From NCBI GenBank assembly GCA_951406725.2, contig OX597831.1:9548001-9612000 (forward strand): DNA of 64,000 nucleotides. Direction: 5' to 3'. Within the stretch, counting starts at the first letter, position 1. Each line of letters opens with the position of its first letter. The position numbers and the translations under genes are program-made. This document shows positions 32,755 through 32,995 of this stretch, piece after piece. The notes beneath the pieces are model-generated. The model made no database searches and was not told where the DNA came from. It saw nothing but the letters and a program-made list of their open reading frames with translations. This DNA is from Octopus vulgaris (Eukaryota).

Positions 32755-32995
32755 TCGCCATGTTGATTCGCTAGCTTTTGCACGCATATTTTTTTCTCTC
32801 CTTCTTTCTGTGTTTTTTTTCTCTGTGTATCTTTCTGTTGAAGAGCGTAGGCTCGAAACGTTAAAGACTTGTTTCATTTATATTTCCTGAGCGCCATACT
32901 AATACAATTGTTTGTTTGTATTCCACCTGCCTTCGTCTTTTGTTTATTTCCGTAAACCTGCCTTCGTCTTTTGTCTATTTTCATAAAACTTACCG
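32755..32995 (+). mobile_element. Short hammerhead-bearing PLE-type repeat, family H1, copy 2
   Basis: Best-preserved copy; (TA)n on both sides; 3' segment acctgccttcgtcttttgt is duplicated. Confidence 0.82.
32830..32867 (+). ncRNA. Minimal type I hammerhead-like fold with variant core CUGUUGA
   Basis: Stem I TCTTT/AAAGA, CTGTTGA plus extra A, stem II GAGC-gtag-GCTC, GAAA, palindromic stem III ACGT, site GUU (GUA in the other copies). Confidence 0.7.

What the first reader, a model, noticed from the sequence alone, without database searches (positions are those of the whole stretch)
32755..32995. Abundant ~200-bp repeat carrying a hammerhead fold with non-canonical core CUGUUGA
Seen: three copies in 64 kb (11790, 32755, 63670), each adjoining (TA)n and with no ORF. 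The flanks diverge, but the block TTT-CTGTTGA-A-GAGCGTAGGCTC-GAAACGT-H-AAAG is the best-conserved part. All three have U where the canonical core has A6, so the change is ancestral rather than decay; copy 1 and copy 3 have further lesions. Established: PLE terminal repeats and retrozymes carry minimal type I hammerheads with palindromic stem III that cleave as dimers, and A6 is a conserved core position. Inference: a high-copy family that amplified with a variant ribozyme, or in which the fold serves as an RT recognition signal rather than a catalyst.
Basis: partly seen in the sequence, partly recalled or inferred. Interest (0 to 1): 0.74.

Follow-up and report, generated by a model that had tools for sequence, protein, structure and literature searches.

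The report
Penelope hammerhead copied uncut, A6U fixed
The repeat is the tail of a very abundant Penelope-type jumping gene whose hammerhead RNA motif has kept one changed core letter through several waves of copying; its copies run straight through the predicted cut site, so the motif likely cuts rarely and likely marks where the copying enzyme switches templates, though cutting is untested.

Summary
Confirmed, with one correction: the family core is CUGU-N-GA, not CUGUUGA. Exact genomic matches: 17,610 with U6, 226 with A6. The repeat is the 3' end (pseudo-LTR, pLTR) of a young 4.47-kb Penelope-like element with RT, Zn-finger linker and GIY-YIG; 34 of 34 hammerheads in 20 long copies carry U6. 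Across six subfamilies only N7 and H17 vary in the motif (2 of 36 columns, flanks 31 of 82). U6 is predicted to zip the core shut. The copies come from uncut RNA: 5' ends pile up about 110 nt upstream of the cut, not at it; internally deleted mini-arrays join 71-191 nt upstream; and informative hybrids with a canonical-A6 sister family cross over inside the motif, before the cut. The two pLTRs of a copy are nearly homogenised. Best reading: an attenuated ribozyme at which the RT likely switches templates to rebuild pLTRs; a slow cut-and-ligate circle remains possible. Cleavage is untested. This scan noted the A6U core before on other genomes; I found no paper describing it (Lunse 2017 unreadable). 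The pLTR and mini-array evidence is what is added here.

The parts
32754..33000 (+). Copy 2: 5'-truncated 3' end (pLTR segment, about -108 to +109 relative to the predicted cut) of the young Penelope-like subfamily, with a short internal duplication near its 3' end
   Evidence: 93% to the full-length unit over -108..+99; sequence
32831..32866 (+). Minimal type I hammerhead fold: stem I 32831-34/32863-66, core C3-A9 32835-41, extra A 32842, stem II 32843-46/32851-54, G12-A15.1 32855-58
   Evidence: read from the sequence; matches the min-HHR features in PMC4209133 except A6
32838..32838 (+). U6, non-canonical core base fixed in the family
   Evidence: 17,610 U6 against 226 A6 exact matches; 25 of 27 in an independently anchored sample
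32858..32861 (+). Palindromic minimal stem III (ACGT); predicted to be buried in the monomer by pairing with U4-G5-U6
   Evidence: sequence; ViennaRNA ensembles
32862..32863 (+). Predicted cleavage site (after H17); not used as a copy boundary
32997..33031 (+). (TA)n target tract at the fixed 3' end (+109) of the insertion
   Evidence: the same 3' end in nearly all long copies
11790..11977 (+). Copy 1: older G7 subfamily; core CUGUGAA from 11857 (U6 kept, G8A lesion)
63670..63859 (+). Copy 3: old U7/A17 subfamily; core from 63753 (U6 kept; A14G and C15.2U lesions)

Best explanation
The 200-bp repeats are 5'-truncated copies of the 3' end of an autonomous Penelope-like retrotransposon whose pLTR hammerhead has a fixed A6U change that is predicted to lock the single motif shut and likely leaves it cutting rarely, so the RT likely copies uncut RNA and likely switches templates in or near the motif to rebuild the pLTRs. 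Shown: element, counts, copy boundaries, hybrids. Inferred steps: (1) transcripts start about 70-190 nt upstream of the motif, mainly near -110/-96; (2) the RT primes at +109 on a nicked (TA)n target, reads through the intact motif and often runs off near -110, which gives the 200-bp repeat; (3) on full-length RNA with two pLTR copies it crosses by homology from the upstream to the downstream copy between about +50 and -90, giving seamless more-than-unit insertions with matching pLTRs; (4) on rare short transcripts without redundancy it joins the 5' end bluntly to the 3' end, up to five times, giving retrozyme-like arrays. The motif stays under selection as a fold (dimer or pause site, perhaps with slow protein-assisted cutting).
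For: Element: RT C-terminus, CxxxxCxxC linker and GIY-YIG directly upstream of the motif; 23,960 first-look candidates, 114 scored at 92-100% identity; 4,470-bp unit, stop-free 1,071-aa frame with PF00078. U6 in 34 of 34 sense motifs of 20 long loci. Conservation: 2 of 36 motif columns vary (N7, H17) against 31 of 82 flank columns over six subfamily consensuses, Fisher p 2.5e-4. Lock: P(G5-C15.2) 0.44-0.98 with U6, 0.00-0.10 with A6 (prediction). Uncut templates: 6 of 34 listed loci start at the cut against 5 of 34 at a control TA site (hand count); 0 of 87 junction-crossing loci end at the cut; 33 of 37 listed ends in the -114..-84 window fall at -113..-102 (hand count); the A6 sister family does the same, 18 of 23. 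Mini-arrays: 13 events among 87 loci, 5 joined bluntly to A(-96), none at the cut, join repeated 2-5 times in 5 events. Hybrids with the A6 family: 6 loci; in L415 and L420 H17 comes from the 3' partner and L421 crosses in GAAGAGC, so the crossover lies 5' of the cut. pLTRs: lineage variants shared by both pLTRs at -87 (10 of 10), -46 (21 of 21), +50 (12 of 12), +81 (27 of 27) in 70 loci; related loci inherit up/down differences only 3' of the cut (2 of 3 alleles, 0 of 11 upstream, background 6.5%). Literature: in the anole PLE the hammerhead is protein-assisted, cleavage is not needed for insertion in vitro, RT starts internally and no reads end at the cut (PMC11167929); a natural A6C core has low but detectable activity (PMC3088659).
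Against: The conserved pattern (only N7 and H17 free, H17 not G in the 27 sampled U6-family copies) is the one catalysis would impose, which suggests some cutting still matters. Long copies show no stop at -121..-90 on their second passage (0 of 65 against 7 of 20 on first passage, p 1.6e-5, hand counts), so the switch must be near 100% efficient, as a covalent circle would be. The inherited-difference and hybrid evidence rests on 3 alleles and 3 informative loci, and differences confined to the 3' side of the cut also fit a cut of the upstream motif followed by a jump. The RNA start is inferred from DNA only. Most loci used for the subfamily consensuses were anchored on the motif, which inflates its conservation; the 27 independently anchored copies agree but are few.
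Confidence: 0.6

Rival explanations
1. Slow but essential ribozyme. The two U6 motifs of a full-length transcript cut as a (protein-assisted) dimer, the unit is ligated to a circle or jumped end to end at the cut, and the RT rolls round it. U6 acts as a monomer lock that restricts cutting to dimers; only the short copies come from uncut RNA.
For: Catalysis-type conservation; seamless junction, identical in 86 of 91 cases; pLTR homogenisation at all frequent variants; no stop at -110 on second passage; tandem units of L113 differ by 2 substitutions; circle model proposed in PMC4209133.
Against: No ends or joins at the cut; no U-tailed RNA joined at the cut among 4 of 4 hits; hybrids cross over before the cut; a single-copy circle cannot hand up/down differences to related daughters, seen at +48 and +96 and perhaps +56.
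Confidence: 0.27
2. Dead relic. A6U killed the ribozyme once; the motif is conserved only because it overlaps a promoter or protein-binding sequence, or by chance along a single master lineage.
For: Copies do not need the cut; a G17 subfamily of the sister family reached 185 exact copies although G17 strongly impairs minimal hammerheads (PMC3884650 abstract); Naiads spread without a detected motif (10.1101/2021.04.23.441226).
Against: The only two columns that change are the two that hammerheads tolerate, N7 changing repeatedly; 13 of 13 mini-array events join upstream of the motif and keep it.
Confidence: 0.11
3. Independent non-autonomous SINE or retrozyme family with a chance hammerhead-like motif.
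For: Most copies are about 200 nt and lack an ORF.
Against: The segment is the 3' end of an ORF-bearing 4.47-kb unit; a sister family carries the canonical core with the same stem II (9,073 matches, control 92).
Confidence: 0.02

Closest known systems
Minimal hammerheads (min-HHR) in pLTRs of metazoan Penelope-like elements (Cervera and De la Pena 2014, PMC4209133; parts 1-2 of 4 read)
   Same: Type I, short stem I, extra base between 9 and 10.1, G10.1-C11.1 pair, palindromic 15.2-16.2, present in both pLTRs, mostly solo truncated copies
   Different: A6 replaced by U family-wide; the only core change named in the text read is U3-A8. Their descriptor required the canonical boxes; supplements were not seen.
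Neptune-type EN+ PLEs (Craig et al. 2021, 10.1101/2021.04.23.441226; passages)
   Same: Single ORF with RT, DKG motif, CX2-5CxxC linker, C-terminal GIY-YIG; partial tandems; microsatellite target
   Different: Neptune versus Nematis was not tested by phylogeny; U6 core
PAc Poseidon element of the green anole (Frangieh et al. 2024, PMC11167929; parts 1-2 of 4 read)
   Same: RT starts internally a fixed distance 3' of the cut (85-92 nt there by my arithmetic, 109 nt here); uncut RNA is the substrate; no ends at the cut
   Different: PAc has a motif whose cleavage was shown (protein-assisted); here U6, cleavage untested; the paper's text does not address pLTR homogenisation or mini-arrays
Metazoan non-LTR retrozymes (10.64898/2026.07.22.740005; part 1 of 5 and passages)
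   Same: The mini-arrays are short tandem units with a type I motif in each unit, derived from a PLE pLTR
   Different: Each array is essentially a one-off insertion, joined upstream of the motif and not at the cut; the window copies are solo
A6C hammerhead of phage Bcep176 (Perreault et al. 2011, PMC3088659; section 8 and passages)
   Same: Natural substitution at position 6; low but detectable activity reported
   Different: A single phage instance with C; here U in over 17,000 copies; 'A6U' has 0 occurrences in that main text

Membership tests
PLE minimal type I hammerhead | Core C3 U G A N G A9 | tested here: not met
   U at position 6 in 17,610 against 226 A6 exact matches; other core positions kept
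PLE minimal type I hammerhead | G12 A A A15.1, U16.1-H17, G10.1-C11.1, extra base after A9, palindromic 15.2-16.2 | tested here: met
PLE minimal type I hammerhead | Stems I and II form | tested here: met
   predicted pair probabilities 0.87-0.94 (I) and 0.99-1.00 (II) for U6 forms
PLE minimal type I hammerhead | Covariation in stems | tested here: inconclusive
   stems invariant across six U6 subfamily consensuses, so nothing to score
PLE minimal type I hammerhead | Located in both pLTRs of an RT-EN element | tested here: met
   13 of 20 long loci have the motif on both sides of the ORF
PLE minimal type I hammerhead | Self-cleaves as a dimer | not testable with these tools
   no assay; genomic ends show no trace of the cut
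EN+ Penelope-like element | Single ORF with RT and C-terminal GIY-YIG | tested here: met
   PF00078 E 4.6e-8 above cutoff; PF01541 E 0.0064, below Pfam's cutoff, motif YIGQT and C..C..H..H read by eye
EN+ Penelope-like element | Partial tandems forming pLTRs, 5' truncation, inverted 5' pieces | tested here: met
Neptune clade | CX2-5CxxC linker between RT and EN; microsatellite target bias | tested here: met
   CSRPRCRTC; (TA)n at the 3' end
Neptune clade | Phylogenetic placement against Nematis | not tested
   no reference sequences fetched
Non-LTR retrozyme | Tandem short units each with a type I motif | tested here: not met
   not met by the three solo window copies; met in form by mini-arrays elsewhere, e.g. 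L260 with 5 motifs
Non-LTR retrozyme | Circular RNA closed at the ribozyme cut | not testable with these tools
   only contigs were available; the genomic joins of the arrays are not at the cut

The most novel reading that the evidence does not exclude
A hammerhead turned from catalyst into a recombination hub: U6 locks the motif, two uncut RNA copies pair through it, and the telomerase-like RT switches there. This would explain how Penelope elements regenerate their pseudo-LTRs, and the blunt, repeated 5'-to-3' jumps on short uncut transcripts would be the birth of retrozyme-like arrays without any ribozyme cleavage.
Probability: 0.3. Interest if true: 0.8.

Novelty: new variant of a known kind. 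Interest (0 to 1): 0.53.

Why it matters
[quoted passage not shown] This genome holds a young, intact element with a weakened-looking core, an A6 sister family as control, about 150 junction-crossing copies and mini-arrays caught at birth, so both questions become testable with one construct. It also implies that descriptor searches for CUGANGA miss the most abundant hammerhead-like family in such genomes. The variant itself has been noted by this scan several times on other genomes.

Tried and rejected
Rfam scan of the window: no hammerhead family among the 150 best of 357 rows shown at E up to 5; uninformative for a minimal motif. The repeat finder was swamped by microsatellites. Pfam found nothing on the 355-aa C-terminal piece and PDB nothing on the whole ORF. 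Sequencing runs: no RNA holder listed, contigs only, so RNA ends could not be seen. Folding 331 nt around the motif gave no signal (z 1.28). A tree of the short segment could not settle whether a small A6U7 subfamily near the base of the lineage is ancestral or a revertant (weak support). Splicing as source of the mini-array joins was rejected: no GT-AG at the joins. A first idea that the mini-arrays spread as families was rejected: L153/L169 share flanks (duplication) and only the 395-to--96 join recurs, at 2 loci. A pure single-copy circle, my reading, was lowered. U-tailed RNA joined at the cut: 0 of 4 hits; this pattern would miss other partners. Literature searches for an A6U core and for pLTR template switching returned no paper whose listing describes them; I judged most hits from titles and abstract starts only. 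Lunse et al. 2017 was not held, and supplements of PMC4209133 and PMC3088659 (inactive variants, alignments) were not opened; they may already show U6.

Full report
Coordinates for the element are given relative to the predicted cut (0 = first base after H17; window 32863).

Observation. The window holds three copies and no more. Copy 2 has stem I CTTT/AAAG, core CUGUUGA, an extra A, stem II GAGC/GCTC with a GTAG loop, GAAA, the palindrome ACGT and H17 = U at 32862. All three copies have U6 and adjoin (TA)n. Copy 1 reads CUGUGAA (G7 subfamily with G8A) and copy 3 has A14G and C15.2U. The window lies in a 2.8-Gb genome. Exact matches of core + stem II + GAAAC: U6U7 6,664, U6 with A/C/G7 10,946, A6 with any N7 226, non-U6 with U7 286; controls 0. 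Of 30 loci anchored on a motif 3' of the hammerhead, 27 reach it: 25 U6 and 2 A6; N7 is A 14, U 8, G 3, C 2. The family core is CUGUNGA.

What it is. Some copies continue upstream into a GIY-YIG domain, a CxxxxCxxC linker and an RT. A protein search gave 23,960 first-look candidates; the 114 scored are 92-100% identical and mostly stop-free. I fetched 20 chosen for long open frames: the unit is 4,470 bp, one copy has a stop-free 1,071-aa frame with PF00078 (E 4.6e-8) and a weak PF01541 (E 0.0064, below cutoff), 13 of 20 have the motif on both sides of the ORF, and 34 of 34 sense motifs have U6. Insertions end at +109 in (TA)n. Window copy 2 is the -108..+109 part of this young subfamily (93%). 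A sister family has canonical A6 with the same stem II and a 3-nt loop; it dominates the 9,073 matches to a CUGANGA pattern (control 92). So A6U is a lineage-specific change in a Neptune-type Penelope-like element (clade name from the linker described in Craig 2021; not tested by tree).

Is the motif under selection? Over six subfamily consensuses only N7 and H17 vary (2 of 36 columns) against 31 of 82 flank columns, Fisher p 2.5e-4; p is 0.019 with four clusters at a tighter threshold. Most members were found through the motif, which inflates this; the 27 independently anchored copies show mainly scattered, CpG-type changes. N7 and H17 are the tolerant positions of hammerheads (recalled). Folding predicts that U6 adds a U4-G16.2, G5-C15.2, U6-A15.1 helix that closes the core and hides the palindrome: P 0.44-0.98 with U6, 0.00-0.10 with A6. 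The word 'locked' comes from an earlier scan note; the calculation is mine. A natural A6C core cleaves at under 0.1 per min (PMC3088659 section 8).

Is the RNA cut before it is copied? (a) Among the first 34 distinct loci whose 5' end abuts (TA)n between -27 and +4, 6 start at the cut and 5 at a control TA site at -15 (counted by hand from the first 100 of 517 rows); scaled up this is under 1% of the 3,619 young copies. (b) 0 of 87 loci that cross the inter-unit junction end at the cut (87 of 152 matches examined). (c) Ends pile up upstream: 33 of 37 listed loci in the -114..-84 window fall at -113..-102, 14 of them at -108 (first 100 of 3,628 rows, by hand); in 30 unselected young copies 6 end at -114..-102 and none at -298..-115; 18 of 23 A6-family copies end at -121..-98. 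The 200-bp repeat is thus likely a run-off from +109 to an RNA 5' end near -110. (d) Six hybrids with the A6 family were found (2 of the 8 hits were not hybrids). In L415 and L420 H17 matches the 3' partner, and L421 crosses in GAAGAGC, so these crossovers lie inside the motif and before the cut; L414, L416 and L418 are uninformative or complex. (e) No U-tailed RNA is joined at the cut (0 of 4 hits). This agrees with the anole PLE, where cleavage is protein-assisted, dispensable in vitro, and no reads end at the cut (PMC11167929 parts 1-2).

Mini-arrays. 14 of the 87 loci (13 events; L153/L169 is a duplication) are internally deleted units of about 290-620 nt, one larger, that keep the motif. 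All join an internal position (+201 to +1021, mostly +347..+412) to a position 71-191 nt upstream of the cut; 5 of 13 join to A(-96), with at most one shared base. A search aimed at -96 (30 of 35 matches read) added two such joins and one at -126, seven plain truncations and point mutants, and no full-length copy starting there. In 5 events the same join recurs within one insertion, five times in L260 (four whole 492-nt units). The RT therefore went round a short RNA that still held the uncut motif, by precise end-to-end jumps or on an RNA ligated at those ends (inference).

pLTR regeneration. In 70 loci with both pLTRs (73 tried, 3 dropped for lack of a usable downstream copy), lineage variants are shared by both pLTRs at -87 (10 of 10), -46 (21 of 21), +50 (12 of 12) and +81 (27 of 27); one-sided differences are no more frequent 3' of -96 (31 of 6,572 and 25 of 7,245 sites) than 5' of it (44 of 9,678). 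The junction is identical in 86 of 91 cases. Long copies do not stop at -121..-90 on their second passage (0 of 65 against 7 of 20; p 1.6e-5, hand counts). That fits a circle or a very efficient switch. Against a single-copy circle, recurrent one-sided alleles 3' of the cut occur in related loci (2 of 3 alleles share a rare non-CpG marker, the third a CpG marker; background 6.5% of pairs), while 0 of 11 alleles 5' of the cut do. This points to a template with two pLTR copies and a switch near the motif, on small numbers; a cut of the upstream motif followed by a jump would give the same pattern. Schostak 2008 states that no obvious mechanism for pLTR regeneration is known (PMC2377424 passages); Cervera 2014 proposed circles.

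Distribution. Contigs of four runs with four organism labels cover the motif and the junction, with no other letter listed at position 6 at the 5% threshold; these runs were found by likeness to this sequence.

Novelty. Min-HHRs in pLTRs are known. I found no paper describing a fixed A6U core or pLTR rebuilding by template switch, judged largely from listings. Lunse 2017 could not be read, and the supplements of PMC4209133 and PMC3088659 were not opened. Five earlier notes of this scan report the same A6U core on other genomes, two with the readings 'locked' and 'uncut RNA'. Papers seen: PMC4209133 parts 1-2 of 4; PMC11167929 parts 1-2 of 4; 10.64898/2026.07.22.740005 part 1 of 5 and passages; PMC3088659 section 8 and passages; 10.1101/2021.04.23.441226, PMC6765202, PMC2377424, PMC3846280 passages; PMC3884650 abstract. 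Verdict: a real, new variant of a known kind; identity as a PLE 3' end near certain, mechanism 0.6, interest 0.53.

Noticed in passing
window 2279-2465 (-): U2 snRNA-like sequence, 144 bits, with a damaged 5' stem-loop; gene or pseudogene.
   Followed up: no
L211, L235, L341; 185 exact genomic matches: A subfamily of the canonical-A6 sister family has G at position 17, which strongly impairs minimal hammerheads; a second non-canonical motif that amplified.
   Followed up: partly
L003, L032, L034, L036, L218: Small A6U7 subfamily with the U6 family's GTAG loop near the base of the lineage: ancestor or revertant, unresolved.
   Followed up: partly
L260 = G000:C8:18598500-18604000: Five-motif array of a 492-nt unit with an inverted 5' piece, inserted in (TA)n; a retrozyme-like array at birth.
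   Followed up: yes
L113 = G000:C6:117391000-117400999: At least two complete 4.47-kb units in seamless tandem, 2 substitutions apart; the array runs beyond the fetched stretch.
   Followed up: partly
L414-L416, L418, L420, L421: Hybrids between the U6 family and the A6 sister family that cross over within the hammerhead.
   Followed up: yes
L220, L224 and rows: Further canonical minimal hammerheads with other stem II sequences, belonging to other repeats.
   Followed up: no
window 1066-1297, 13262-13492, 49393-49624: Another dispersed repeat of about 230 nt, three copies, 85-89% alike.
   Followed up: no
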